From NCBI GenBank assembly GCA_038322875.1, contig JBBQGI010000003.1:820-64819 (forward strand): a stretch of 64,000 bases of DNA. The letters are read 5' to 3'. This document shows, piece after piece, positions 1 through 28,487 of the stretch. Made by a program: the position numbers and the translations under genes. The notes beneath the pieces were generated by a model, which saw nothing but the letters and a program-made list of their open reading frames with translations, searched no databases and had not been told where the DNA came from. This DNA is from Candidatus Limnocylindria bacterium. GTDB taxonomy: Bacteria > Chloroflexota > Limnocylindria > QHBO01. Numbering within the stretch: position 1 is the first letter of the stretch; each line of letters opens with the position of its first letter.

Positions 1-111
1 ACTACGCCAAGCCCTTGTTCCCCGGCTTGTACCATGAAATTAGAACCATTTGCTCTGCGACACCGCCATTGGTTGTAGCAGCCCGGAGGTTCCGGGCAAC
101 AGGAGGCATCG

Positions 112-669
112 ATGGTGCAGCGCGAGCTGGTCGAACTGGCCAGGAGCGGCGACCGAGAAGCGTTCTCGGCGCTGGCCGCCAGTGTCATCGACCGGCTGTA
201 CGCCACCGCGGTGCTCATCCTGCGTGACCACTCCCTGGCCGACGATGCAACGCAGGAGACGATCGTGCGCGTCTGGCGCGACCTGCCGTCCCTGCGCGAT
301 CCAGATCGCTTCGAGGCCTGGCTGAGGCGCCTGCTGGTCAATGCCTGCCGAGATGAAGGCCGGCGCCATCGGCGACGTCGCCCGGAGATGACATTGCTTC
401 CCATCCATGAGCCCTCGGTCGGCGATTCAAGCGTGACGTTGGCGGACCGGGACGCGCTCGAGCGCGGATTCCGCCGGCTCACCCACGACCACCGCACCGC
501 CGTGGTGCTCCACCACTACCTCGGACTCTCGCTGCCCGAGGTCGCAGACGCGACCGGCGTCCCGCTGGGAACGGCCAAGTCGCGTGTCCACCACGCAACC
601 CTTGCACTTCGAGCGGCACTTGAGGCCGATGCCCGCGGCGCCGGCATGACGAGAGGCGGGACGGCATGA
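112..669 (+). CDS. ECF (extracytoplasmic function) sigma-70 family RNA polymerase sigma factor
   Basis: 185 aa; sigma-70 region 2 and region 4 HTH (LGLSLPEVADATGVPLGTAKSRVHHA); AGGAGG SD 5 nt upstream of the ATG; 4-nt ATGA overlap with the downstream gene. Confidence 0.85.
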   Translation: MVQRELVELARSGDREAFSALAASVIDRLYATAVLILRDHSLADDATQETIVRVWRDLPSLRDPDRFEAWLRRLLVNACRDEGRRHRRRRPEMTLLPIHEPSVGDSSVTLADRDALERGFRRLTHDHRTAVVLHHYLGLSLPEVADATGVPLGTAKSRVHHATLALRAALEADARGAGMTRGGTA

Positions 670-1793
670 GCCGCAACGACGACTTCGACAACACGCTGGA
701 GGCCTGGCTCAGCAGCCAGGCGCCGTCGCAGGCTCCGGACCGGGTGCTGGATGCGGCGCTCGATCGCGTGGCGACGCAGTCGCGGAAGCGGAGCTGGCTG
801 CGGCGCCTGATTGGAGGTACCCCGATGACGATCCTGACCCGCGTCGCGGCGGTGACCGCCGTGGTCGCAGTCGCCGTGCTCGTCGGCTTCCAGCTCAGCC
901 ATCTGATGCGCAACGTCGGTCCCGCACCGTCGCCGAGCCCCTCGGTCTCGGCTCAGTCGACTGAGTCGGCGAGTCCCAGCTCGTTCGAGCCGTCCGCATC
1001 CCCCCGTGCAGCCGCGCTCGTGCTTCGCCTGGAAGGCGGGGCCGAGGATGGCCGGTTCCACCTTGTCACCGTTCTGGAAGACGGTCGCGTCATCACCACC
1101 GCCGCGCGCGGGACGGCCGGGGCCGCGACTCCCCCATTCGAGCGGCGCCTGACGGCAGCCGGTGTTCAGCTGGTGCGCGATGAGATGAATGCGACCGGCC
1201 TGACCGATGCGTCCGCCACCTACTACCCGGTCGCCAAGCCCGGTGTCGAGCCACCCCCTTACGGGGGCGTGGGATCGGCACTGGAGGTCGGGCTACCGGG
1301 CGGCGTTGCGGTGTCCATCACATGGTTCTACTGGGGCGATGGCAATCCCTACTTCGAGCCACAGCCTGAGGCTCTGGCGCTCACCAATCTTGCCGGCCGC
1401 CTGCAGACGCTCGAGGAATGGCTCCCGGCAGGGGCCTGGGCCGATGCGTCCCCCCAAGCTTATGCGCCGGCACAGTACCGGATCGTCATCTCCACAGACC
1501 CATGGGGCGGCAGCGTGAACGACCTCCCGGTCGAGAGCTCGACCGTGGCCTGGCCACTCGACGCGGGGATCGATGCGTTCGGCGCTGTGATTTCGGCGGG
1601 ATCCCCCGAGATTCGATGCGGCTTGGCGACTGCTACGGAGGGTGCGGCCGTCATCGACGCACTTGAGACCGCCGGAGCCACCCCGTCCGATACCCAGTCG
1701 TATCTTTCTTTCCAGCTTGGGCTTCGGGCCGTCAGCCGCCGGATCACGATCACACTCGAACCGGTCATTCCCTTCTTCCCGGGAAGGTGCTAG
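666..1793 (+). CDS. membrane-anchored putative anti-sigma factor
   Basis: Translationally coupled to the ECF sigma; single TM helix (ILTRVAAVTAVVAVAVLVGF) after a short cytoplasmic N-terminus; Ser/Pro/Ala-rich linker; no recognisable catalytic motif. Confidence 0.55.
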   Translation: MSRNDDFDNTLEAWLSSQAPSQAPDRVLDAALDRVATQSRKRSWLRRLIGGTPMTILTRVAAVTAVVAVAVLVGFQLSHLMRNVGPAPSPSPSVSAQSTESASPSSFEPSASPRAAALVLRLEGGAEDGRFHLVTVLEDGRVITTAARGTAGAATPPFERRLTAAGVQLVRDEMNATGLTDASATYYPVAKPGVEPPPYGGVGSALEVGLPGGVAVSITWFYWGDGNPYFEPQPEALALTNLAGRLQTLEEWLPAGAWADASPQAYAPAQYRIVISTDPWGGSVNDLPVESSTVAWPLDAGIDAFGAVISAGSPEIRCGLATATEGAAVIDALETAGATPSDTQSYLSFQLGLRAVSRRITITLEPVIPFFPGRC

Positions 1794-1976
1794 GGCGTTC
1801 TAGAGGGCGTCCCGGTTCGTGGCCGATCGACGATCACGATCACGCCTTGGTAAAGCGGGTTCTTCCCGACGACCATCAGCGCGCGAGGGCCAGCCGGCCG
1901 GGGTAACGACGAGCCTACGGCATCGCGATCGGTCTGTTCCCGGCGCGGCCTGGAATCGGTCTGTAGGATTGCCGGC

Positions 1977-2621
1977 ATGGGCCAGATGATGCGACTCGAC
2001 TCCCTCAGCGGCGACACCAGCACCTACGTGGCGTCGGCACAGCCGTCGCCGGGAGCGTCCGTCCTGCTGCTCCACCCGTGGTGGGGCCTGAACCAGACGA
2101 TCCGTGACCTGGCCGACCGGCTCGCTGGCGACGGGTTCACGGTCATGGCGCCGGACCTGTTCGATGGCACCGTCCTGACCACGCCGGAAGACGCAAAGGA
2201 GCACCTCTCCTCGGTGGGGGACGACACGGAACGAGTCAATGCCACCCTCAACCACCTCCTCGCCCACCCCGACGCTCGAGGCGACCGCGCCGCGATCATC
2301 GGGCTCAGCTTCGGCGCCATGTACGGCACCGACGTCGCCGGCTCGCGATCTGATATCGCCGCCCTGGTCTGCTTCTACAGCGGCATCTTCGAGGCGCCAC
2401 ACGGCATCCCCTACCTCGGGCACTTCGCCGAGGACGATGAGTTCGACGACTCGGCCCAGGTGCCTGACTTTGAGAAGACGCTCGGCGAGGACAGCGCAGC
2501 GTACGTCTACCCCGGCACGAAGCACTGGTTCCTCGAGGCGGACCGCCCCGAATACGAAGCCGGTGCAGCCGAGCTCGCCTACGCCCGGACCCTCGCCTTC
2601 CTGCGCGAGCACGTGGCATAG
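1977..2621 (+). CDS. dienelactone hydrolase family protein
   Basis: LLLHPWWGLN...GFTVMAPDLFDG...GLSFG...HWF motifs of the DLH alpha/beta-hydrolase family. Confidence 0.75.
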   Translation: MGQMMRLDSLSGDTSTYVASAQPSPGASVLLLHPWWGLNQTIRDLADRLAGDGFTVMAPDLFDGTVLTTPEDAKEHLSSVGDDTERVNATLNHLLAHPDARGDRAAIIGLSFGAMYGTDVAGSRSDIAALVCFYSGIFEAPHGIPYLGHFAEDDEFDDSAQVPDFEKTLGEDSAAYVYPGTKHWFLEADRPEYEAGAAELAYARTLAFLREHVA

Positions 2622-4986: not shown

Positions 4987-6254
4987 AGGCTGAGTCGGGG
5001 CCGACCACGGGCCGCTTCGGCGCATTGGCCGAACCCCAGTTCAGGCTGCTCTGGATCGGGCAGACCGCTTCTTCGGCCGGCGATGCGCTGATCCCGGTGG
5101 CAATCGCATTCGCCGTGCTCAGGATCGGTGGGTCGGCAGCCGACCTGGGGGTCGTGTTCGCGGCCTTCACCGTGGCGCACGTGGCGCTCGTCCTGGCCGG
5201 GGGCGTGTGGGCGGACCGGCTGCCCCGGCAGCTGGTGATGGTCGTCTGCGACGTGGTCCGAGCGATAGCCGAGGTCGTGCTGGCGTTCCTGCTGCTCAGT
5301 GGCTCAGCCCAGATCTGGCACATCGCGGTCGGGGCCGCGGTGATCGGCGCGGCGAGTGCCTTCTTCCTGCCCGCCAGCAGCGGCCTGATCCCACAGACGG
5401 TGAGCCCGGGCCGGCTGCAGCAGGCGAATGCCCTGATGACCCTGTCGCGTAGTGCGACCGGCATCTTCGGACCGCCGATCTCAGGGCTGGTCATCGCGTT
5501 CTATGGCACCGGGGCGATCTTCCTGATCGACGCGGCGACATTCGTGGTCAGTGGGATCTCGCTGCTCCTGCTGCACCCAGTGCCGGGCGAGAAGCGCAAT
5601 GAGCCACAGCCTTTTCTGGCCGAGCTGGCCGCGGGCTGGCGCGAGGTGGTCGAACGACGCTGGATCCTGGCCGGTATCAGCGCGTTCGCGATCGGCAACC
5701 TGGCGGCATCGCCGTTCTTCATCCTGGGCGCCGTCATCGCCGATCAGAAGCTGGGCGGCTCCACGGCCTGGGGCATCATCCTGACCGGGAGCGGGATCGG
5801 CGGGCTGATCGGCGGGCTGCTCGCCCTGCGACTGCGTCCGAAGCGACCGCTCTTCGTGGGCTTCCTGATCACAAACTTCATGGCGTTGCCGCTGCTGGCG
5901 CTGGTTGGGCCGCTCCCGACGCTGATGATCGCGGCCAGCTCATTGCTCTCCGTTGCGGCGATCCAGCTCGCCAATACGTGGTGGTTCACGATGCTGCAGC
6001 AACACGTTCCGGAGCACGCCCGATCCCGAGTGAGCAGCTACGACTGGCTGGTGTCGCTGGTCTTCCAGCCGGTCGGGTTCATGCTGGCCGGTCCCCTCGC
6101 CGGGTGGATCGGCTTCGAGGCGACGCTGCTTGGCGCCGTGGCACTTTCGCTCGTCGCCAACCTGGGCGTCCTGCTGGTGCGCGCCGTGCGCGACGTGCGC
6201 TGGGTCGAGGACGCCGCACCAACCGTCGCCAGCACGGACGGACCGCTACCGTAG
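4983..6254 (+). CDS. MFS transporter (DHA3/EntS-like)
   Basis: 12 TM; FRLLWIGQTASSAGD N-terminal motif; ATGA overlap with the upstream GNAT stop. Confidence 0.8.
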   Translation: MKAESGPTTGRFGALAEPQFRLLWIGQTASSAGDALIPVAIAFAVLRIGGSAADLGVVFAAFTVAHVALVLAGGVWADRLPRQLVMVVCDVVRAIAEVVLAFLLLSGSAQIWHIAVGAAVIGAASAFFLPASSGLIPQTVSPGRLQQANALMTLSRSATGIFGPPISGLVIAFYGTGAIFLIDAATFVVSGISLLLLHPVPGEKRNEPQPFLAELAAGWREVVERRWILAGISAFAIGNLAASPFFILGAVIADQKLGGSTAWGIILTGSGIGGLIGGLLALRLRPKRPLFVGFLITNFMALPLLALVGPLPTLMIAASSLLSVAAIQLANTWWFTMLQQHVPEHARSRVSSYDWLVSLVFQPVGFMLAGPLAGWIGFEATLLGAVALSLVANLGVLLVRAVRDVRWVEDAAPTVASTDGPLP

Positions 6255-6272
6255 GCGGTCGGAATTCTCGCT

Positions 6273-7166
6273 CTAGGCGAGCGCCTCGAGGACCGGCAGG
6301 TGCTCGGTCGTCCCATCGGGCGCCACGGGGATCACGGCAACGTGGGTGGCGCCGGCGGCGACCATCTGCGCGATCCGGACGCGGATGAACTCGACGTCGC
6401 CCCAGGCCACCATCGCATCCACCAGCCGATCGCTACCCGGCTTCTCCCAATCAGCTTCCGCAAAGCCTTGCGCGGCCCAGCTCGCCTGGTATGCCGGCGT
6501 GCGCAGGTAGGGCGCGAGGTAGGCGCGCGCCGCAGCGCGAGCCAACTCGGGATCGGTCTCGAGGACGGCGGGCATCGAGACGGCCAGCACAGGCCGCCGA
6601 CCCGGGCTTGCGGCATCCAGGACACCCCGCGTCCACCTCACGCGTTCAGGGGTGACGAGGTACGGGAAGGCACCATCGGCCTCGGTCGCGGCCAAGGTCA
6701 GCATGCGTTCGCGAATGGCTGCGACCAGGACCGGCGGCTCGGCCACGGCATCGGCTCCTGGTCCACGGTAGATGGCAGCCCGATATGCGGCGAGGTACTC
6801 GCGCATACGAGTCAGCGGCCGCTCGTAGGTGTGGCCGCGCAGCTTCTGCGCCAGGTGCAGGTGCGACACCCCCAGGCCCAGCACGAAGCGCCCGTCGGTT
6901 GCCTCCTGCAGCGTCATGGCTGCCATGCGGGTCGTCTGCGCATCGTGGCCCCAGATGCTCACAATGCTCGTTCCCAATCGGATCGAGGTCGTCTCCCCCG
7001 CCAGCAGGCCGAGCAGCGTGAACGACTCGCGGCCGACCGTCTCGGGCACCCAGAGCGTGCCGTAGCCGAGCTCGTCGACGCGGCGCGCGTACGCCCGGGC
7101 ATCCTCGATCGACAGCGAGTCGAGGTGGCCCCATGCTCCCAGTCGCCCCAGGTCGACGGCGCTCAT
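6273..7166 (-). CDS. LLM-class (luciferase-like) F420-dependent oxidoreductase
   Basis: 297 aa; TIM-barrel LLM motifs (LWVPETVGRESFTLLGLLAGETTSIRLGTSIVSIW...GRFVLGLGVS); start set at the ATG forming an ATGA overlap with the upstream gene; the track ORF is over-extended to 8300. Confidence 0.75.
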   Translation of the reverse strand: MSAVDLGRLGAWGHLDSLSIEDARAYARRVDELGYGTLWVPETVGRESFTLLGLLAGETTSIRLGTSIVSIWGHDAQTTRMAAMTLQEATDGRFVLGLGVSHLHLAQKLRGHTYERPLTRMREYLAAYRAAIYRGPGADAVAEPPVLVAAIRERMLTLAATEADGAFPYLVTPERVRWTRGVLDAASPGRRPVLAVSMPAVLETDPELARAAARAYLAPYLRTPAYQASWAAQGFAEADWEKPGSDRLVDAMVAWGDVEFIRVRIAQMVAAGATHVAVIPVAPDGTTEHLPVLEALA

Positions 7167-7963
7167 TCGTCGATGCCCCCGAACCGGTAGCGCATGAAAA
7201 GCTCCTCCCCGGACCGATGGATGCTCATCAATTGGCCCTCGCGCGGATGCTCGGCAAACGGAGAACCGCCGGGGATGGCGGCGATCATGGGCAGGGCCCC
7301 TGTCCCGAGCAGCCGCGCACCGATCGTCCAGTACAGGTCGTCGAGCAGCCCCACGGCCAGGAACGCCGCGTTCGTGGTCGGCCCGCCCTCGAGCAGGAGG
7401 GATCCGATCCGACGCTCGCCGAGCCGGGCCAGGATCCAGGCGGGCTGGGGCCTTCCCGTCGGCGCTACCAGGATCTCCGTCCCCGGCGGCTGCTCGGGCC
7501 GCGGAGCCTGCGCACCCAGCACCAGGATGCGCGGCTGGTCGGCGTGGCTGAACCAGGCGCGATCGGTCGGGATCGCTCCGCCGCCGCCGATCACCACGGC
7601 GGTTGGCTGTGGCGAGCGTCCCGCTGCGGTCCGGCGCGCGGCGAGGTCGGCCGGCAGGTGCGAGTAGAAGTCGTCGGCGCGCAGGGTGCCCACGCCGCTC
7701 CCGACCGCGTCGTATGCCACGCGCAGCAGCTGGAGCAAGCGTCGATCGGCGCGGCCGGAGAGCCCCTCCGCGCTCCCGGCGAGCTGTGCACGTCCGTCGA
7801 TGCTGGTGACCATGTTCACGCCGACCAGCGGGCGCCCCGCCGGAGTGGGCGGCAGTGCGAGATCGGCGAACGCCTCGTCGAGGTCGAGGTCTGTCGCAGG
7901 ATCGGGCCATAGGCGGTCGACGCTGAAGGCTGGCATCGCGCGATGGTACGCGCCCGTCGGCAT
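7163..7963 (-). CDS. RibD C-terminal domain / dihydrofolate reductase family protein
   Basis: LVGVNMVTSIDGRA...LLLEGGPT motifs of the RibD_C reductase family; coupled to the LLM gene by an ATGA overlap. Confidence 0.7.
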   Translation of the reverse strand: MPTGAYHRAMPAFSVDRLWPDPATDLDLDEAFADLALPPTPAGRPLVGVNMVTSIDGRAQLAGSAEGLSGRADRRLLQLLRVAYDAVGSGVGTLRADDFYSHLPADLAARRTAAGRSPQPTAVVIGGGGAIPTDRAWFSHADQPRILVLGAQAPRPEQPPGTEILVAPTGRPQPAWILARLGERRIGSLLLEGGPTTNAAFLAVGLLDDLYWTIGARLLGTGALPMIAAIPGGSPFAEHPREGQLMSIHRSGEELFMRYRFGGIDE

Positions 7964-7966
7964 CGG

Positions 7967-8287
7967 TCAGTCGAAGATGCGCTCCAGGTGCCAGGTGCCG
8001 CGCATCTCGTCGAGGTAGACGGTGCAGAGCAGCCCGTCGCGCGTGACGAGCTTGAAGTAGGAGCGCGCCGTCGGCTCGCGCCACCAGTCGTCGTCGACGC
8101 GCCAGCGGTTGCAGATCCCCACCTCGCCGTGCGTCTCGCCGTCCAGGCGGAGGCGGAGCGGGATGCCGGAGGCATCGGTCTCGACCTGGATGAGGGGATG
8201 GTCGAGATACAGGCGCGTCACAGTTCGACCAGCCTGGACCGATGTTCGGGCAGCGACGCGCTCGGCCGGTCGTGGCTGGCCCGCCAC
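7967..8287 (-). CDS. small conserved protein linked to imuB (W-rich motif RWRVDDDWWREP...YFKL), possibly the C-terminal part of ImuB
   Basis: 106 aa ORF with GTG start, overlapping the imuB-like ORF by 70 nt in another frame; abuts the downstream gene with a 3-nt gap. Confidence 0.45.
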   Translation of the reverse strand: MAGQPRPAERVAARTSVQAGRTVTRLYLDHPLIQVETDASGIPLRLRLDGETHGEVGICNRWRVDDDWWREPTARSYFKLVTRDGLLCTVYLDEMRGTWHLERIFD

Positions 8288-9267
8288 AGGCGGCCCTCAC
8301 CGAAGCGCATGGTCAGCCGTTCCAGCGACCAGCGCAGCTCCTCCCAGCGGCCGACCCGTGCCTCGAAGGCGGGCAGCTGCCTGGCGGCAGGGTCGGCGAG
8401 ACGGTCGAAGGCCAGACCGATGGCGACGATGCGTGGCTCCTCCTCGCTCGGCTGTCGCGCCCGGGTGGCCTGCTCCAGGCGACCGATCAGGAGGCGCGCA
8501 ATCCAGTCCGGCTCGAGCGTCGGCTCGGGGAAGGCCAGCTCGACGTTGAGCTTCGGGGCATCCTCCAGGCGTAGGTTCAGCGTGGCCCGGCCGGGTGCCA
8601 GGTGGCGGGCACGCAAGGTGTCGCACAGCTCCGCGACGATGCGGCGCAGGGCGAGCGCGATCTCGGTGATCCCCTCTGCCGGCGGCTCGAAGGCCGCATG
8701 GGCTCGCAGCCGTTCCGGGCGGCGGCGCGGGACGAGCGGGCGTGGATCGCGGCCGCGGGCGAGCTGCTGGAGCCGCTCCCCGGCCGATCCGAACTGGGCG
8801 CCGACCGCGGATCGCGGGAGCGCGGCCAGCTGGCCCATGGCGGTCAGCCCGAAGAGGGCGAAGCGGGCACGCGTCTCCGGATCGGCGGTGAGCAGGTCCA
8901 GGGAGAGCGGCACGAGGGCGGCGGCGCCTTCGTGAGGAGGGATGGTGAGGAAGACGGCCGGCGCCCCTGGCCGTTGGGGGCGTGCCAGGCGCGCGGCCAG
9001 GACTGCCAGCCAGCGGTTGTCCCCCACTCCCGCCCGCACGGGGAGCGGTGCGATCCCGCGCGCCAGCGTCACCGCCCGCGCTGCGATCCGGCGCTCATCG
9101 CCGAGGAGCGGCCCGAGGCCCGTGATGTCGACCAGCGCCACTCCCCGGTCGACCGCCTCGATCCGCGGGGAGAGGTCATCGAGGCGATCCAGCATGGCAT
9201 CGAAGGTGGCGCTCTCCCCCTCCGGCGTGCGCAGCGCCGGCCAGACGAGCGCCAGCAGCCGCGTCAC
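8218..9267 (-). CDS. imuB: ImuB-like inactive Y-family DNA polymerase homolog
   Basis: 349 aa; N-terminus (MTRLLALVWPAL...) resembles the start of ImuB/DinB-like proteins but lacks catalytic acidic residues; lies immediately downstream of imuA' in a LexA-box operon. Confidence 0.55.
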   Translation of the reverse strand: MTRLLALVWPALRTPEGESATFDAMLDRLDDLSPRIEAVDRGVALVDITGLGPLLGDERRIAARAVTLARGIAPLPVRAGVGDNRWLAVLAARLARPQRPGAPAVFLTIPPHEGAAALVPLSLDLLTADPETRARFALFGLTAMGQLAALPRSAVGAQFGSAGERLQQLARGRDPRPLVPRRRPERLRAHAAFEPPAEGITEIALALRRIVAELCDTLRARHLAPGRATLNLRLEDAPKLNVELAFPEPTLEPDWIARLLIGRLEQATRARQPSEEEPRIVAIGLAFDRLADPAARQLPAFEARVGRWEELRWSLERLTMRFGEGRLWRASHDRPSASLPEHRSRLVEL

Positions 9268-9285
9268 GCGACCGCTCCCTTGTCC

Positions 9286-9446
9286 CGCTTGCGCTCAGCG
9301 TCAGTAACGACCAAGTAGCGCCAGGTCGCTGCCGTTTCGGGGGACGAGAGCGCCTCTTCTTGCCTGCTACCGACGCTGAGCGCAACCCACGGCCAAGGAA
9401 CGCCCAGAGAGCGACCCTGCTTGGCCGTTAGCGACGCTGAGCGCAA
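9286..9446. repeat. inverted/direct repeat element in the imuA-imuB spacer (core GACGCTGAGCGCAA x3)
   Basis: TTGCGCTCAGCGTC at 9289-9302 is the perfect reverse complement of GACGCTGAGCGCAA at 9372-9385 and 9433-9446. The extended 21-nt arms CGTTAnnGACGCTGAGCGCAA lie at 9286-9308 (inverted) and 9426-9446. Confidence 0.6.
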
Positions 9447-9468
9447 ATCGTTGGGCACCGCGGCGGCC

Positions 9469-10242
9469 TCAGGCCGAGACGACGCGGAGGGCGGGAAGCT
9501 CCTCGTGCTCCACCGCCTCGCGCGGGGAGGCAGCGGAGCGCAGGAGCGGATCGATCCGGCGCCCCTCACCGAACCACAGGTCCAGCTCGGCGCGGCCGCC
9601 GGCGAGCGCCCAGCGGTGGCGCGTGACGGTCGCCTCCACCCGCTGCCCGACCAGGTCCTGCCCGACCGCCAGCCAGGCGCGCCGCCCCAGCGCCACTCGA
9701 ACCCCGGCCACTCGACCCGCAGCCTCGCGGCCACGCGGCCCGGCGAGCAGCAGGCCCGTGCCGCCGGCGCGCAGCAGCAGGTCGGCCAGGCGGTCGAGGC
9801 CGCGCGGCGGCGGGCCATCGGCCAGGTCGAGGACGAGGAGATCGATCAGGCGGCTGCGGGCCAGCCAGCCGGCCAGCTCCACCGCCTCGGCGGGATCGGC
9901 GGGGCGGACGACCAGCAGCCACTCCAGCGCGACGCCCAGCCGGGCAGCGGTCGCCGGGTCGAAACGGCCAGAGGGATCGAGCCAGGCGACCAGCCCACCG
10001 GCGGCCTGGCAGGCGGCCAGCGATCCGAGCGCCAGGCTGGTGGCGCCGCCACCGGTCGGAGCATCGAGCAGGGCCAGGGCGCCGCGCGGCCAGCCGCCGC
10101 TGCGCAGCGCCGCGTCGAGCCCAGGCTGACCCGTGGGAAGGGGATTGGCTACGACCATCGGTCCGGGGTCCGCACCCTGCCGCAGCCCATGACCGCGGAG
10201 CGCTTCGAGGAGCTCGGAGAGTGGCTGGACGGCATCGGTCAT
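9469..10242 (-). CDS. imuA: ImuA' (RecA/SulA-like cell division inhibitor family) mutasome protein
   Basis: 257 aa; RecA-fold P-loop-like region (LPTGQPGLDAALRSGGWPRGALALL); position first after a LexA box and before imuB. Confidence 0.75.
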   Translation of the reverse strand: MTDAVQPLSELLEALRGHGLRQGADPGPMVVANPLPTGQPGLDAALRSGGWPRGALALLDAPTGGGATSLALGSLAACQAAGGLVAWLDPSGRFDPATAARLGVALEWLLVVRPADPAEAVELAGWLARSRLIDLLVLDLADGPPPRGLDRLADLLLRAGGTGLLLAGPRGREAAGRVAGVRVALGRRAWLAVGQDLVGQRVEATVTRHRWALAGGRAELDLWFGEGRRIDPLLRSAASPREAVEHEELPALRVVSA

Positions 10243-10256
10243 GGCCCAACCGATGA

Positions 10257-10273
10257 TAGAACAGATGTTCTAG
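10257..10273. promoter_or_regulatory. LexA (SOS) box TAGAACAGATGTTCTAG
   Basis: Perfect GAAC-N4-GTTC palindrome (Cheo/Gram-positive-type LexA operator) 14 nt upstream of the imuA' ATG; it also abuts the -35 of the divergent tRNA-Ala promoter. Confidence 0.7.
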
Positions 10274-10274
10274 T

Positions 10275-10305
10275 TTGGGAAGCCCCCAAACCCCGCTGAT
10301 ATACT
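10275..10305 (+). promoter_or_regulatory. putative tRNA-Ala promoter (TTGGGA -35 / TGATATACT extended -10)
   Basis: TTGGGA at 10275-10280 and TGnTATACT at 10297-10305; 12 nt before the tRNA 5' end. Confidence 0.4.
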
Positions 10306-10317
10306 GCCCCCGCCCGT

Positions 10318-10393
10318 GGGGATGTAGCTCAGTTGGGAGAGCACTGCGTTCGCATCGCAGGGGTCAGGGGTTCGAGTCCCCTCATCTCCACCA
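10318..10393 (+). tRNA. tRNA-Ala (anticodon CGC)
   Basis: 76-nt cloverleaf folded by hand: acceptor GGGGATG/CATCTCC with the G3:U70 Ala identity pair, D arm GCTC/GAGC, anticodon stem CTGCG/CGCAG with loop TTCGCAT, T arm GGGG-TTCGAGT-CCCC, encoded CCA. Confidence 0.95.
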
Positions 10394-10480
10394 CATCATC
10401 CATATCGCCCCTGCCACACCCGTGCAGCTCGGACAGGGCTACCTGCTTGGGCGTCCCGCCCCGATCGACGAGGCCCAGGG

Positions 10481-11260
10481 TCAGTTCAACGGCAGGTTGA
10501 ACTCTCCCTCCGTCACCTCTGCCGACGGCGGCGCGCTGAGCCCGACTGCCACGTCGAAGTTGCTGAAGCTCAGCGTGGCGCTGAAGGTGCCAACCGTGTC
10601 GCTTGAGACATCGGTCGACAGCTCGGTGAGCCACAGACCCTCGCGGTCGAAGAGCAGATTGAGGACCAGGGCGTCCCCGAAGATCGATCCCGGGTCCATG
10701 GAGGCCACCGCGCCGGCGTCCTTCATCAGGGCCGGCGGGACCGAGACGCTGACCTGGTAGCACTGCCGATCGCCACAGGCGACATCGGCGAGCTTGGTGG
10801 TGACCACGCCGTCCTTGAGGAGGAAGTCGCCGACCTTACCGACGATCGATGCCGGATCGAAGGACTCGACCGGCGAAGCGCTGCCACTGACGACGCTCGT
10901 CTGGTGCGACCACTTGTCGCCGGTCAGGCTCGTCTTGACGTAGAGGTCCTGCCCGATCACGACCACGTCACCCGACAATCCCAGGAGGGCTGGAACGCCG
11001 AAGGTGAGATGGACGTTCTTGCCCGGGATGTCGACATCGGCCTCCAGCGTGGTCCCGTCGAGCTTGACGTTGCCGCCAGTGGAACCAGGCATCGAGAAGG
11101 AGCCGTCGACTGCCAGCGACATGTGGAAGCTCTTCAGCTTGGCGGTCGCTTCGAGGCCCTGGGTGATGATGTCGGTGGGGCTCGTCAGCGCCGGCGTTGA
11201 CTGGCAGGCAGCCAGCACGGCAAGCATGACCACCATGACCGGTGCGAGTCTGCGGAGCAC
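10481..11260 (-). CDS. secreted lipoprotein (LppX/LprAFG-like size and topology; family uncertain)
   Basis: Signal peptide with lipobox (MLRRLAPVMVVMLAVLAAC|Q) when started at the GTG at 11260, which has an AGGGAGAGG SD 6 nt upstream; about 260 aa; the track ORF extends to 11353. Confidence 0.55.
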   Translation of the reverse strand: MLRRLAPVMVVMLAVLAACQSTPALTSPTDIITQGLEATAKLKSFHMSLAVDGSFSMPGSTGGNVKLDGTTLEADVDIPGKNVHLTFGVPALLGLSGDVVVIGQDLYVKTSLTGDKWSHQTSVVSGSASPVESFDPASIVGKVGDFLLKDGVVTTKLADVACGDRQCYQVSVSVPPALMKDAGAVASMDPGSIFGDALVLNLLFDREGLWLTELSTDVSSDTVGTFSATLSFSNFDVAVGLSAPPSAEVTEGEFNLPLN

Positions 11261-15017: not shown

Positions 15018-15093
15018 GGGGTTGTAGCTCAGCTGGGAGAGCACCTGCATGGCATGCAGGGGGTCGGGGGTTCGAGTCCCCCCAGCTCCACCA
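15018..15093 (+). tRNA. tRNA-Ala (anticodon GGC)
   Basis: 76-nt cloverleaf: GGGGTTG/CAGCTCC acceptor with G3:U70, anticodon stem CCTGC/GCAGG with loop ATGGCAT, T arm GGGGG-TTCGAGT-CCCCC, encoded CCA. Confidence 0.95.
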
Positions 15094-27006: not shown

Positions 27007-27060
27007 CGGCCTTCAGCTTATTGCGATAACGCCGGGTACGGAGAACTCGCTTTCTGTCGA

Positions 27061-27669
27061 ATGGCCCGACGCAAGGACATGACTGCGATCACTGCGCTCT
27101 TCGCACTGATCGCAGTCAGCATGTCCGGCTGCCTTGCGCTCCAATCTAGCAGCGATGCCAATAGTCACTCTCGCCTAGTGGCTGCTACTTGGTTTGATGC
27201 GGCCTCCAAGGATCAGCAGAGTCTCCTAGAAGACGAGATCATCACCGCCGATGAGTACGGGCAGGCCCTGAATGCTGGAAGGCGGTGCATGGAAGACAAA
27301 GGGTTCCATGTTTCTCCCCTCCAGGACCTGCCTGATAGAATCCGGCGCGACTTCATCGTCTACGCCGGCACGCGGTCAGATGACGATGTCACCCCCGAAT
27401 GGCAACGGTGTCGCGATCAACACTACGGCGTCGTTGAAGGCATATGGCTTCTCCAGCACGTTCGCCAGGACACGAGCAAGGTCGAGGAAGAACTCCTCAG
27501 GTGTCTCGCTGGCAACAGCATCACGGGAGCTACCATTGGCATGGCCGACTCGGACCTCGTTCAGTTGCTGTACCAGCGGGCGGCTTCGGAGCAGGCGTGG
27601 ACTTGTCGGGAAGTCTTTCTTATCACGTCTGGGAACTTGCAACCACTTCCGCCAGGAGGCCCGCCGTAG
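27061..27669 (+). CDS. lipoprotein (unknown function)
   Basis: Lipobox signal (ALIAVSMSGC|L); low GC; 202 aa. Confidence 0.55.
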   Translation: MARRKDMTAITALFALIAVSMSGCLALQSSSDANSHSRLVAATWFDAASKDQQSLLEDEIITADEYGQALNAGRRCMEDKGFHVSPLQDLPDRIRRDFIVYAGTRSDDDVTPEWQRCRDQHYGVVEGIWLLQHVRQDTSKVEEELLRCLAGNSITGATIGMADSDLVQLLYQRAASEQAWTCREVFLITSGNLQPLPPGGPP

Positions 27670-27865
27670 TCCCCGGCATGGCCAAAGAAGGCTATGACCG
27701 AGCTGGACGACTAACTGGGTCCCCTGATGAGCCGACGGTAAGCATCGGGTAAGGCACAGGGCCCTAGGCTGGCCGTCCTGTCTCCGGAGCCCGCCGTCGA
27801 GTGCCCGGACGTCGGGTTCCGGACAGGTCATCCATTCGCTCGCCTCCCGCGAGGGTGGTGGACCG

Positions 27866-28471
27866 ATGTCCGTCGGCGACCGGATCGCCGTGGCTGCACT
27901 CGCGGCCGCCCTGGTGGCCGTGGGGTTGGGGGCCTGGCTACTGCTCGCTGTCGGAGCGGCCGCGGACCCTGCCGGTCAAGGGGTGCTCGACCCCTTCGGC
28001 GACGCGTCGGCTTCCTTCGCCGCTTCCCTCGACGCTGGTTCGGTGGTCGTCGACGTGGAAGGTGCAGTGCTGCATCCGGGCATCATCGAGCTGCCCGCTG
28101 GGGCGCGCGTGGCCGAGGCACTCGACGCGGCGGGAGGCTATTCACCCCAAGCCGACCTCGTCGCCTCAGCGGCGCAGGTGAACCTGGCGGCGGTGGTGCA
28201 CGACGGCCAGCAGATCGTGGTGCCGACCATCGGCGCACCGGCGGTGGGTGGCGGGACCGGCGACGGTGGGACGAGCGGCGGGCTGGTCAATCTGAATGCG
28301 GCCGGCCCCGATGCCCTCGATGCCCTACCCGGAATCGGACCGGTCACCGTGCAGAAGATCGTGGCCGCTCGCGCTGAGCAGCCATTCGCCACCCTCGACG
28401 AGCTGGTCACGCGCAAGGTCATGACCAATTCGCAGCTCGACAAGATCCGCGATCTCGTAACGCTCGGCTGA
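27866..28471 (+). CDS. comEA: competence protein ComEA (helix-hairpin-helix DNA-binding)
   Basis: N-terminal TM; SLBB-like region; C-terminal tandem HhH (LNAAGPDALDALPGIGPVTVQKIVAAR). Confidence 0.85.
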   Translation: MSVGDRIAVAALAAALVAVGLGAWLLLAVGAAADPAGQGVLDPFGDASASFAASLDAGSVVVDVEGAVLHPGIIELPAGARVAEALDAAGGYSPQADLVASAAQVNLAAVVHDGQQIVVPTIGAPAVGGGTGDGGTSGGLVNLNAAGPDALDALPGIGPVTVQKIVAARAEQPFATLDELVTRKVMTNSQLDKIRDLVTLG

Positions 28472-28487
28472 GCGGCCACCGGCGCCC

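What the first reader, a model, noticed from the sequence alone, without database searches (positions are those of the whole stretch)
6273..10273. SOS-box-controlled imuA'-imuB operon without dnaE2, extended by a RibD_C reductase and an F420-type LLM oxidoreductase
A perfect Gram-positive-type LexA operator (TAGAACAGATGTTCTAG) lies 14 nt upstream of imuA'. Downstream on the same strand, with short gaps or overlaps, follow the imuB-like gene, a small W-rich ORF, a RibD_C-type reductase and an LLM-class oxidoreductase (ATGA coupled). The canonical mutasome cassette is lexA box, imuA', imuB, dnaE2, and there is no dnaE2 here. Reductases riding on an SOS operon are unusual. The LexA box also abuts the -35 of the divergent tRNA-Ala(CGC) promoter.
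Basis: partly seen in the sequence, partly recalled or inferred. Interest (0 to 1): 0.6.

Follow-up and report, generated by a model that had tools for sequence, protein, structure and literature searches.

The report
SOS mutasome operon with split ImuB
This is a DNA-damage-inducible "mutasome" gene cluster of an uncultured soil Chloroflexota lineage, built in an unusual way: the ImuB protein is split into two genes yet an ImuA'-like partner is kept, the "missing" polymerase gene dnaE2 starts just outside the window, and the two reductase genes are probably neighbours with their own promoter.

Summary
The palindrome TAGAACAGATGTTCTAG (10257-10273) is real. It lies in the spacer and -10 of the only promoter-like site of the region, 14 nt before imuA'. 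In 66 of 66 related Candidatus Limnocylindria species the arms are invariant and the N4 varies.

The "small W-rich ORF" is a free-standing ImuB-C domain. ImuB is therefore split into a truncated, catalytically dead Y-family protein (349 aa) and ImuB-C (84 aa), both behind a RecA-like ImuA' that lacks the P-loop lysine.

"No dnaE2" is a window-edge artefact. Window base 1 is the outermost base of a second TAGAAC-N4-GTTCTA box. A zero-mismatch overlapping contig shows dnaE2 starting 29 nt beyond the edge. 40 of 43 relatives have dnaE2 3-9 kb downstream.

RibD_C-LLM always follows imuB-C (58/58). The gap is over 300 nt in 59 of 77 species and sometimes holds opposite-strand genes. No LexA box precedes it, and it has its own conserved TACCAT/TAGCAT -10-like element (58/75). 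It is most likely a separate unit, with read-through possible here.

The imuA'-imuB gap is 201 nt, not short. It holds a covarying 26-bp helix.

Published surveys report free ImuB-C only without ImuA, so this is a new variant of a known system.

The parts
10257..10273 (.). LexA-type operator TAGAAC-N4-GTTCTA(G) of the imuA' promoter
   Evidence: Exact palindrome. Present at imuA' in 66 of 66 related species, with invariant arms and a variable N4.
10253..10281 (-). Promoter-like site TTCCCA (10281-10276), 17-nt spacer, TATCAT (10258-10253). The operator fills the spacer and overlaps the -10. The -10 ends 10 nt before the ATG, so the mRNA is nearly leaderless.
   Evidence: It is the only sigma-70-like site found in 5900-10600. 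GTTCTATCAT, or a TAnnnT variant, is conserved across species.
9469..10242 (-). imuA'-like gene: a truncated RecA paralogue of 257 aa without the P-loop lysine (APTGGGATS)
   Evidence: Pfam RecA 4e-20. NCBIfam ImuA 5.5e-13, 49 bits, below the cutoff of 150. The Walker A Lys is absent in 67 of 67 orthologues. 33% identity to the RecA_N gene that heads the L089 cassette.
9268..9468 (-). Structured intercistronic spacer of 201 nt with three copies of TTGCGCTCAGCGTCG (two direct, one inverted) and ACGGCCAAG/CTTGGCCGT arms. It forms a helix of about 26 bp.
   Evidence: RNAalifold and pair counts on 10 orthologues: 87.9% of cells paired against 78.3% shuffled and 32-39% slid. 25 pairs carry double changes against 9.6 expected, 0 of 500 shuffles. 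MFE -104.6 kcal/mol, z -2.57. No copies elsewhere in 1.2 Mb. No Rfam hit.
8218..9267 (-). imuB N-part: an inactive, N-terminally truncated Y-family polymerase homologue (iPolY, 349 aa). It carries a QLPAFE clamp-type motif and a RecA-NT-like helix (WEELRWSLERLTMRFGEGRL).
   Evidence: Pfam IMS_C only. The alignment shows no equivalent of DinB D8, and D103/E104 are replaced. QLxAF is present in 63 of 64 orthologues and RWEELRWS...RFG.GRLWRA is conserved. 954 homologues; the top 120 are 344-377 aa long.
7967..8221 (-). Stand-alone imuB-C gene (84 aa, Pfam DUF6504 family). Its GTG start overlaps the imuB stop (GTGA).
   Evidence: 758 cluster representatives at E<=1e-3, mostly about 84 aa, with fusions to IMS+IMS_C, IMS_C or RecA. 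38 of 49 family members hit DUF6504. hhalign against the C-terminus of a canonical ImuB: 95.3%, E 2e-8. tblastn hits the last 85 aa of ImuB in a Roseomonas imuA-imuB-dnaE2 cassette. The gap to imuB is 42 nt or less in 77 of 77 species. AF2 model is all-beta, pLDDT 89.
7943..7948 (-). -10-like TACCAT, 6 nt before the probable RibD_C start (ATG 7936). Proposed as the own, leaderless-type promoter of ribD_C-LLM.
   Evidence: TA[CG][CG]AT lies within 66 nt of the RibD_C start in 58 of 75 species, against 0.8% background.
7163..7963 (-). RibD_C / pyrimidine-reductase-superfamily gene. The ORF starts at 7963; the likely start is 7936, giving 257 aa.
   Evidence: Pfam RibD_C 4.7e-19. All NCBIfam equivalogs are below cutoff. 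Only 29-34% identical to annotated pyrimidine/DHFR-family reductases.
6273..7166 (-). F420-dependent LLM-class oxidoreductase of family TIGR03620, joined to RibD_C by an ATGA overlap
   Evidence: TIGR03620 at 233.3 bits, above the cutoff of 219.8. The gap between RibD_C and LLM is 60 nt or less in 62 of 63 species.
10297..10393 (+). Divergent tRNA-Ala(CGC) (10318-10393) with extended -10 TGATATACT (10297-10305)
   Evidence: ARAGORN. The tRNA is conserved next to imuA' in nearly all species, with an invariant TGnTATACT.
1..111 (-). Right-hand flank of the dnaE2 promoter. Window base 1 is the outermost base of the second operator TAGAACATCCGTTCTA. TATCAT and the dnaE2 ATG lie 15-29 nt outside the window.
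   Evidence: L088 is a contig from the same sample with 0 mismatches over 2135 nt. It extends 100 nt and reads TAGAACATCCGTTCTATCAT-N10-ATG, then GTPDDYCELHAHSNFSFLDGAS. Window 1-2400 aligns end to end at 87% with L010, stopping at that locus's dnaE2 box.

Best explanation
The window carries the accessory half of a split, LexA-type-controlled translesion 'mutasome' of an uncultured soil Chloroflexota (Candidatus Limnocylindria).

Unit 1. A near-leaderless promoter (TTCCCA-17-TATCAT) has a TAGAAC-N4-GTTCTA operator across its spacer and -10. It drives imuA' (a RecA paralogue with a dead P-loop), a 201-nt structured spacer, imuB-N (a catalytically dead, N-terminally truncated Y-family protein that keeps a clamp-type QLxAF motif and a RecA-NT-like helix), and imuB-C (a free 84-aa beta-barrel domain, translationally coupled).

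Unit 2. ribD_C-LLM begins 30 nt further on, behind its own conserved TACCAT -10-like element. It is a separate redox gene pair that here may also receive read-through.

Unit 3. dnaE2 lies 6.3 kb downstream on the same strand. It has a second identical operator and TATCAT, and starts 29 nt outside the window.

Inferred mechanism. LexA represses units 1 and 3. After damage, ImuA' binds the RecA-NT-like helix of ImuB-N, ImuB-C bridges to the DnaE2 PHP domain, and the clamp motif brings DnaE2 to stalled forks, as modelled for ImuA-ImuB-DnaE2.

Shown: the anatomy, the conservation and the homologies. Inferred: LexA binding, induction, complex formation, promoter use and leaderless starts.
For: Operator and promoter. 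The box is at imuA' in 66 of 66 species and at dnaE2 in 43 of 44, with invariant arms. lexA lies divergently adjacent to the same motif in relative L089. GAAC-N4-GTTC is the established LexA motif of B. subtilis and M. tuberculosis, and the cassette is LexA-regulated wherever it has been studied (PMC3323433).

Protein identities.

dnaE2 at the window edge. Orthologues pass NCBIfam 'error-prone DNA polymerase' (1076 and 1062 bits against 939) and fail the DnaE model. 40 of 43 loci have dnaE2 on the same strand within 10 kb.

Contiguous imuA'-like, polY, imuB-C, dnaE2 cassettes without reductases occur in the distant relatives L089 and L094.

Separate ribD_C unit: the gap statistics, opposite-strand genes in the gap, no box, and a conserved TACCAT/TAGCAT.

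Interaction model: PMC12926913, PMC6511836 and the title and abstract of PMC11791113.
Against: No lexA or recA gene was found in the window or in 1.16 Mb of related loci, so the repressor of this lineage is unseen.

There are no expression data.

The ImuA' falls below NCBIfam's ImuA cutoff and shows no BLASTP similarity to a proteobacterial ImuA.

The window's own ImuB-C does not reach Pfam DUF6504 at E<=0.01.

No terminator-like site separates imuB-C from ribD_C. RibD_C-LLM lies between imuB-C and dnaE2 in 58 of 58 species. Functional linkage is therefore not excluded.

The -10 assignments rest on consensus and conservation only.
Confidence: 0.8

Rival explanations
1. The reductases are true members of the SOS operon. 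imuA'-imuB-imuB-C-ribD_C-LLM is one damage-inducible transcript, and the F420-linked redox pair serves the damage response, for example by sanitising or reducing damaged pyrimidine or ring-opened purine nucleotides, or by supplying a deazaflavin-related cofactor.
For: The gap is 30 nt (3 nt to the first ATG), with no terminator-like site. RibD_C-LLM lies on the same strand between imuB-C and dnaE2 in 58 of 58 species. 11 of 77 species have a gap of 60 nt or less.
Against: The gap exceeds 300 nt in 59 of 77 species (median 538, up to 3854). It holds variable genes, some on the opposite strand: L010, a HIT-like ORF by sequence motif in L011, and an ECF-sigma-like ORF in L082. No LexA box was flagged upstream of RibD_C in any locus. 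RibD_C has its own conserved -10-like element. The distant contiguous cassettes L089 and L094 have no such genes. The flanking genes are also syntenic, so shared descent explains the linkage.
Confidence: 0.12
2. The palindrome is the operator of a regulator other than LexA, or a structural element shared by two promoters, so the genes are not SOS-controlled.
For: No lexA was seen in the sampled DNA. LexA-independent damage regulons exist: PafBC in mycobacteria and DdrO/IrrE in Deinococcus (titles and abstracts).
Against: The motif matches the experimentally established Gram-positive LexA motif. It marks exactly the two promoters that are LexA targets wherever the cassette has been studied. In L089 the same motif lies between lexA and the cassette.
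Confidence: 0.07
3. The split and truncated imuB reflects decay. It would be a frameshifted or pseudogenised ImuB in a MAG, not a working two-protein arrangement.
For: ImuB-N lacks about 70 N-terminal residues, and ImuB-C is a separate ORF joined by a 4-nt overlap.
Against: The same two-gene layout with intact ORFs occurs in 77 of 77 species-level genomes at 56-99% identity, with conserved motifs. There are 758 mostly stand-alone ImuB-C cluster representatives. Drastically reduced ImuBs that keep thumb, little finger and ImuB-C are documented (PMC12926913).
Confidence: 0.03
4. The 201-nt imuA'-imuB spacer is a selfish MITE or REP-type insertion with no role in the operon.
For: It is absent from about half of the species, where imuA' and imuB abut. 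It has long inverted arms and internal repeats.
Against: No other copy exists in 1.2 Mb of related DNA plus the window. Orthologous copies keep the helix through compensatory changes: 17 of 26 pairs in helix 1, and 0 of 500 shuffles reach the observed score.
Confidence: 0.15

Closest known systems
Mycobacterial split cassette imuA'-imuB / dnaE2 (the ImuA'-ImuB-DnaE2 mutasome)
   Same: A RecA-like ImuA' comes first, followed by a catalytically dead Y-family protein with a clamp motif and a RecA-NT-like motif. dnaE2 lies at a separate locus. The operator is of the Gram-positive LexA type GAAC-N4-GTTC.
   Different: [quoted passage not shown] ImuB-N lacks the N-terminal palm segment. dnaE2 is only about 6 kb away on the same strand and carries an insertion of roughly 180-280 aa in the palm domain.
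[quoted passage not shown]
   Same: An inactive Y-family protein is followed by a stand-alone ImuB-C of about 80 aa and partnered with DnaE2. The cassette is SOS-controlled (PMC8072749, PMC6511836, PMC12926913).
   Different: Those systems are reported to lack ImuA in the operon and in the genome. Here a dedicated ImuA'-like gene with a dead P-loop heads the operon. lexA is not in the operon, and dnaE2 has been separated from it by inserted genes.
Canonical proteobacterial imuA-imuB-dnaE2 operon (for example Roseomonas plasmid NZ_CP025064, locus L007)
   Same: The three functions occur in the same order, and the ImuB C-terminus is homologous to the 84-aa protein.
   Different: ImuB is fused (500 aa). 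Its ImuA shows no detectable BLASTP similarity to the protein here. All the genes are contiguous.
Geobacter lexA-imuB-C-polY operon
   Same: A stand-alone ImuB-C lies next to a Y-family gene in a damage-induced unit.
   Different: There the polymerase appears active, and no DnaE2 or ImuA is involved.

Membership tests
ImuA-ImuB-DnaE2 mutagenesis cassette | A RecA-related accessory gene (imuA/imuA') heads the unit | tested here: met
   Pfam RecA 4e-20 over residues 34-140. It is first in the operon. The P-loop Lys is lost in 67 of 67 orthologues.
ImuA-ImuB-DnaE2 mutagenesis cassette | The accessory protein belongs to the curated ImuA family (NCBIfam NF033429) | tested here: not met
   49.2 bits against a cutoff of 150. 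It scores better against RecA models. No BLASTP similarity to a proteobacterial ImuA. No actinobacterial ImuA' sequence was available for comparison.
ImuA-ImuB-DnaE2 mutagenesis cassette | A Y-family homologue without catalytic carboxylates | tested here: met
   In alignment A3 the N-terminal Asp region is absent and DinB D103/E104 align with G/V.
ImuA-ImuB-DnaE2 mutagenesis cassette | A beta-clamp-binding motif after the little finger | tested here: met
   QLPAFE in the window, and QLxAF in 63 of 64 orthologues. Clamp binding itself is not testable here.
ImuA-ImuB-DnaE2 mutagenesis cassette | A RecA-NT-like motif in ImuB that binds ImuA' | tested here: inconclusive
   A conserved RWEELRWSlER...RFG.GRLWRA aligns with the corresponding tails of L089, P0228 and L007 ImuB. 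No profile test against RecA-NT was run.
ImuA-ImuB-DnaE2 mutagenesis cassette | The ImuB-C domain is fused to the C-terminus of ImuB | tested here: not met
   It is a separate 84-aa ORF with a GTGA overlap, and the layout is the same in 77 of 77 species.
ImuA-ImuB-DnaE2 mutagenesis cassette | A DnaE2 (error-prone pol III alpha) partner | tested here: met
   It is not in the window. It starts 29 nt beyond the left edge. Orthologues pass NF004225 and fail the DnaE model.
ImuA-ImuB-DnaE2 mutagenesis cassette | Regulation by LexA | not testable with these tools
   The operator-like palindrome is conserved at both promoters. Binding and induction need experiments.
iPolY-ImuB-C-DnaE2 systems (Deinococcus ImuY type, DnaE2X type) | An inactive PolY next to a stand-alone ImuB-C | tested here: met
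iPolY-ImuB-C-DnaE2 systems (Deinococcus ImuY type, DnaE2X type) | ImuA is absent and RecA is presumed to substitute | tested here: not met
   An ImuA'-like gene is present in the operon here and in L089 and L094. The published descriptions state that imuA is absent.
iPolY-ImuB-C-DnaE2 systems (Deinococcus ImuY type, DnaE2X type) | dnaE2 lies in the same operon | tested here: not met
   dnaE2 lies 3-9 kb downstream behind its own box in Limnocylindria. It is contiguous in L089 and L094.
Pfam DUF6504 / ImuB-C superfamily | A match to the family profile | tested here: inconclusive
   The window protein gives no hit at E<=0.01. 38 of 49 aligned relatives hit, with best E 2e-9. The family profile against a canonical ImuB C-terminus scores 95.3%.
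Gram-positive-type LexA operator (GAAC-N4-GTTC) | A palindrome with GAAC/GTTC arms that overlaps core promoter elements of SOS genes | tested here: met
Gram-positive-type LexA operator (GAAC-N4-GTTC) | A LexA protein encoded by the organism | tested here: inconclusive
   There was no tblastn hit in the window or in 1.16 Mb of related loci. Whole genomes could not be scanned.
TIGR03620 F420-dependent LLM oxidoreductase | A score above the curated cutoff | tested here: met
   233.3 bits against 219.8. F420 use is not testable here.
RibD reductase of riboflavin synthesis | A score above the equivalog cutoffs | tested here: not met
   The Pfam RibD_C domain is present (69 bits), but every NCBIfam equivalog is far below its cutoff.

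The most novel reading that the evidence does not exclude
The RibD_C-like reductase and the F420-dependent LLM oxidoreductase are functionally tied to the mutasome. They lie between imuB-C and dnaE2 in every Limnocylindria species sampled (58/58). In this genome they abut imuB-C with no terminator, so SOS read-through would co-induce them. They could act on damaged nucleotides or on a deazaflavin-related cofactor.

A second, more probable novelty is already part of the main reading. A four-protein mutasome (ImuA' + iPolY + free ImuB-C + DnaE2) would be an evolutionary intermediate between the DnaE2X-type and the ImuA-ImuB-DnaE2 systems, and its ImuA':ImuB ratio may be set by a conserved structured RNA.
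Probability: 0.12. Interest if true: 0.7.

Novelty: new variant of a known kind. Interest (0 to 1): 0.42.

Why it matters
Two surveys of bacterial translesion systems (NAR 2019 and NAR 2026) found stand-alone ImuB-C only in systems without ImuA. They proposed iPolY + ImuB-C + RecA + DnaE2 as the precursor of ImuA-ImuB-DnaE2.

An abundant soil class, and at least two more distant lineages, combine a dedicated ImuA'-like protein with a still-split ImuB. This is the intermediate that the proposed scenario predicts, or else a secondary fission. Either way it gives naturally separated modules for testing which part binds ImuA', DnaE2 and the clamp.

The case also shows how an ancestral contiguous cassette can be pulled apart by inserted genes while each half keeps a LexA box. 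And it adds a conserved, covarying intercistronic RNA helix of unknown role inside an SOS operon.

Tried and rejected
- dnaE2 inside the window: none by tblastn or ORF size. The largest ORFs are ComEC and LeuRS.
- A 1-mismatch box at 27042 in front of ORF 27061-27669: no Pfam family, so not lexA. It lies beside comEA/comEC and is treated as chance.
- The second exact GAAC-N4-GTTC at 5031: inside the MFS gene, treated as chance.
- The 49-sequence ImuB-C alignment was too diverse for a locus search. A 10-sequence subset worked.
- lexA and recA were searched with the L089 proteins in all loci: none found.
- Contig look-ups for P0132, P0134, P0133 and P0136 returned contigs of under 1 kb with no context.
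- Erill 2006 (PMC1326238) is not held. A search for the Dehalococcoides LexA work found nothing.
- RibD_C against plasmids: only 29-34% identical generic reductases.
- ImuB-C against the PDB by sequence and by fold: nothing significant, which agrees with the published 'novel fold'.
- The ImuB N-part against the PDB by sequence: nothing.
- A dispersed-repeat (MITE/REP) origin of the spacer: no other copies.
- The Rfam 'tmRNA' hit at 10318-10393 is the tRNA scored by a clan relative.
- A sigma-70 -35 for the tRNA promoter was not detected by the scan. The extended -10 was inferred from conservation.

Full report
**Observation.** On the - strand of 6273-10273 lie five consecutive ORFs:
- 9469-10242, 257 aa, Pfam RecA 4e-20.
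- 8218-9267, 349 aa, IMS_C only.
- 7967-8221, 84 aa, no family hit.
- 7163-7963, RibD_C.
- 6273-7166, luciferase-like. TIGR03620 'F420-dependent LLM oxidoreductase' scores 233 bits against a cutoff of 219.8.

The palindrome TAGAACAGATGTTCTAG lies at 10257-10273, 14 nt from the imuA' ATG. tRNA-Ala(CGC) is at 10318-10393 on the + strand.

The only sigma-70-like site in 5900-10600 is TTCCCA-17-TATCAT on the - strand (10281-10253). No terminator-like site was found. The operator fills the spacer and overlaps the -10. The -10 ends 10 nt before the ATG, so the transcript would be nearly leaderless.

One point differs from the finding: imuA' and imuB are 201 nt apart.

**Is the box more than chance?** Within the window the count is weak evidence. 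There are 2 GAAC-N4-GTTC sites against 0.48 expected, and 12 of 100 shuffles give at least 2.

Comparative data settle it. The ImuB-like protein has 954 homologues. The top 120 are 77-100% identical and 344-377 aa long, and the few that carry organism names are Chloroflexota MAGs. A scan of one genome per species returned 80 loci, nearly all titled Candidatus Limnocylindria, Chloroflexota or Chloroflexia MAGs.
- All 66 species that include the imuA' 5' end have GAAC-N4-GTTC just upstream.
- 43 of 44 species with the dnaE2 5' end have a second box there.
- The arms TAGAAC/GTTCTA carry 1.6-2.0 bits per position, and the N4 carries 0.1-1.4 bits.
- 109 of the 130 exact sites in 1.16 Mb are at these two promoters.

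GAAC-N4-GTTC is the established LexA motif of B. subtilis and M. tuberculosis, and the imu cassette is LexA-regulated wherever it has been examined (PMC3323433). In a more distant relative (L089), lexA lies divergently next to the cassette, and the intergenic region reads TTGACA-AGAACAGATGTTCT-ATAGTATAAT plus a second imperfect site.

I found no lexA in the window or in the sampled loci. The repressor of this lineage is therefore inferred.

**The small ORF is ImuB-C.**
- A search of 1.84 billion cluster representatives gave 758 relatives. Most are about 84 aa. A few are fused to the C-terminus of IMS+IMS_C proteins (P0228, 538 aa), of IMS_C proteins (P0247), or of a RecA-like protein (P0221).
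- 38 of 49 aligned members hit Pfam DUF6504. The window's own sequence does not.
- tblastn hits the last 85 residues of ImuB in a canonical imuA-imuB-dnaE2 cassette on a Roseomonas plasmid.
- The family profile aligns with that C-terminus at 95.3% probability, E 2e-8.

This is the ImuB-C domain of Aravind et al. 2013 and Timinskas & Venclovas 2019. An AlphaFold2 model is all-beta with pLDDT 89. It has no significant PDB neighbour, which agrees with the published statement that ImuB-C is a beta-barrel of novel fold (PMC12926913).

**The other two mutasome proteins.**
- The 349-aa protein lacks about 70 N-terminal residues, including the first catalytic Asp. It has G/V where DinB has D103/E104, so it is an inactive Y-family protein.
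- It ends with QLPAFE (QLxAF in 63 of 64 orthologues) and a conserved RWEELRWS...RFG.GRLWRA helix. This helix aligns with the RecA-NT-like tails of other ImuBs.
- ImuB is therefore split exactly between the RecA-NT-like motif and ImuB-C. The two genes are 42 nt or less apart in 77 of 77 species.
- ImuA' is RecA-like but falls below NCBIfam's ImuA cutoff (49 against 150 bits).
- It lacks the Walker A lysine in 67 of 67 orthologues.
- It is 33% identical to the RecA_N gene of the L089 cassette and shows no BLASTP similarity to a proteobacterial ImuA.

**dnaE2 is not missing.**
- Reverse-complemented, window 1-2400 aligns end to end at 87% with L010 8195-10534. The alignment stops 2 nt before the GAAC core of that locus's dnaE2 box.
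- A short contig from the same sample (L088) has 0 mismatches over 2135 nt and extends 100 nt beyond the window.
- It reads ...GGCGTAG-TAGAACATCCGTTCTA-TCAT-GAGCGGTCCA-ATG GGC ACG..., which translates to MGTPDDYCELHAHSNFSFLDGAS. This matches the N-termini of the full-length Limnocylindria DnaE2 ORFs.
- Window base 1 is the outermost base of this second operator. The ATG lies 29 nt outside the window.
- Full-length orthologues (1237-1390 aa) pass NCBIfam 'error-prone DNA polymerase' (1076 and 1062 bits against 939) and fail the DnaE model.
- They carry an insertion of roughly 180-280 aa, with no Pfam match, inside the palm domain.
- 40 of 43 loci with enough sequence have dnaE2 on the same strand 3.1-8.5 kb after imuB-C.

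This is a split cassette, as already known for mycobacteria.

**Are the reductases on the SOS operon?** RibD_C-LLM follows imuB-C on the same strand in 58 of 58 species, and the two genes are always coupled to each other. Several results argue against operon membership:
- The distance from imuB-C to RibD_C has a median of 538 nt. It is 60 nt or less in only 11 of 77 species and over 300 nt in 59 of 77.
- The gaps hold variable genes: a GNAT, a 140-aa protein, an ORF pair that looks like a toxin-antitoxin system, and an ORF resembling a solute-binding protein.
- Some gap ORFs are on the opposite strand: L010, a HIT-like ORF by sequence motif in L011, and an ECF-sigma-like ORF in L082.
- No LexA box was flagged upstream of RibD_C in any locus.
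- A TACCAT/TAGCAT hexamer lies next to the RibD_C start in 58 of 75 species against 0.8% background, and in the examples read it lies 6-8 nt before the start. In the window it is 7948-7943, 6 nt before ATG 7936. This is the same -10-to-ATG geometry as at imuA' and dnaE2.
- The distant contiguous cassettes L089 (lexA <> imuA'-polY-imuB-C-dnaE2-recN-recA) and L094 (imuA'-polY-imuB-C-dnaE2) contain no reductases.

The simplest history is that an ancestral four-gene cassette was opened between imuB-C and dnaE2 by inserted genes, and that dnaE2 kept or gained its own operator. In this genome the 30-nt gap has no terminator, so read-through remains possible. I give real functional linkage about 0.12.

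**The imuA'-imuB spacer (9268-9468).**
- It contains two direct copies and one inverted copy of TTGCGCTCAGCGTCG, each next to an ACGGCCAAG or CTTGGCCGT arm.
- In ten orthologous spacers RNAalifold predicts a 26-bp outer helix and inner hairpins.
- 87.9% of cells pair, against 78.3% in shuffles and 32-39% when partners are slid.
- 25 of 43 pairs show double changes against 9.6 expected (0 of 500 shuffles). In helix 1, 17 of 26 pairs covary.
- The window sequence folds at -104.6 kcal/mol, z -2.57.
- There is no Rfam match and no other copy in 1.2 Mb.
- About half of the species lack the spacer, and there the two genes abut.
- Two species with long gaps (L046, L071) have an extra operator in front of imuB.

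I infer a locus-specific RNA element, perhaps an RNase III-type processing, stability or attenuation site that sets the ImuA':ImuB ratio. Its function was not tested.

**The divergent tRNA.** tRNA-Ala(CGC) is next to imuA' in nearly all species, behind an invariant TGnTATACT extended -10. In the window the operator lies at about -40 to -55 of that promoter. In some species it covers the -35 position, and in others it is more than 75 nt from the tRNA. LexA control of the tRNA is possible in some genomes but is not a conserved feature.

**Comparison with known systems.** Published surveys list ImuA-ImuB-DnaE2 with fused ImuB-C, and iPolY + stand-alone ImuB-C + DnaE2 types (Deinococcus ImuY, Kyrpidia/DnaE2X). 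The second group is explicitly described as lacking ImuA in the operon and the genome, and is proposed as the precursor of the first.

The Limnocylindria system, and L089 and L094, combine a dedicated ImuA'-like gene with a split ImuB. It fails the 'fused ImuB-C' feature of the first group and the 'no ImuA' feature of the second. It most likely works like both: ImuA' on the RecA-NT-like helix, ImuB-C on the DnaE2 PHP domain, and the clamp motif for recruitment. These interactions are taken from published models and were not tested here.

**Verdict.** The operator and the imu genes are real and strongly supported. 'Without dnaE2' is a window-edge artefact. 'Reductases on the SOS operon' is unlikely as a functional statement. 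The real points of interest are the split-ImuB-plus-ImuA' architecture, which is a new variant of a known kind, and the conserved structured spacer.

Noticed in passing
window 9268-9468 (- strand): The 201-nt imuA'-imuB intercistronic element has a covarying helix of about 26 bp and triplicated TTGCGCTCAGCGTCG motifs. It has no Rfam family, no other copies in 1.2 Mb, and occurs only in a subclade.
   Followed up: yes
window 1-1793 (+ strand), and L088: An ECF-type sigma factor (112-669) and a coupled 375-aa ORF without a Pfam family (666-1793) are transcribed divergently from the LexA-boxed dnaE2 promoter. L003 shows the same sigma / dnaE2 arrangement.
   Followed up: partly
L014 14858-18691, L052 6556-10728, and other Limnocylindria dnaE2 genes: DnaE2 is 1237-1390 aa long. 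It carries an insertion of roughly 180-280 aa inside the DNA_pol3_alpha palm domain that matches no Pfam family, so no intein signature was found.
   Followed up: partly
window 10297-10393, and 46 related loci: tRNA-Ala(CGC) is kept divergent from imuA' across the class. An invariant TGnTATACT extended -10 precedes it. The tRNA leader length is variable (12-45 nt), and the distance to the LexA box also varies.
   Followed up: yes
window 27042-27055, next to 27061-31247: AGAACTCGCTTTCT, a 1-mismatch version of the box, lies 6 nt before a 202-aa ORF without a family. comEA (27866-28471) and comEC (28488-31247) follow. This is probably chance.
   Followed up: partly
L046 8768 and L071 4713: Where imuA' and imuB are 630-690 nt apart, an additional TAGAAC-N4-GTTCTA box sits directly in front of imuB. 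This suggests that the operon has been split into two SOS units in those species.
   Followed up: no
Gaps between imuB-C and RibD_C, for example L029 10299-11213 and L032 5527-5961: A same-strand pair recurs in about 20 species: a GNAT acetyltransferase of about 300 aa and a protein of about 140 aa (motif PGAIDDPGMKGG...LDLPGPDDPVAW) with no family. This window's lineage lacks both.
   Followed up: partly
L089 7527-10377: In a distant relative the cassette continues directly into recN and a full-length recA. The whole unit reads lexA <> imuA'-polY-imuB-C-dnaE2-recN-recA and forms one SOS gene cluster.
   Followed up: no
window 15018-15093: A second tRNA-Ala (GGC) lies 4.6 kb from the first. 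The same pair recurs upstream of imuA' in many related loci.
   Followed up: no
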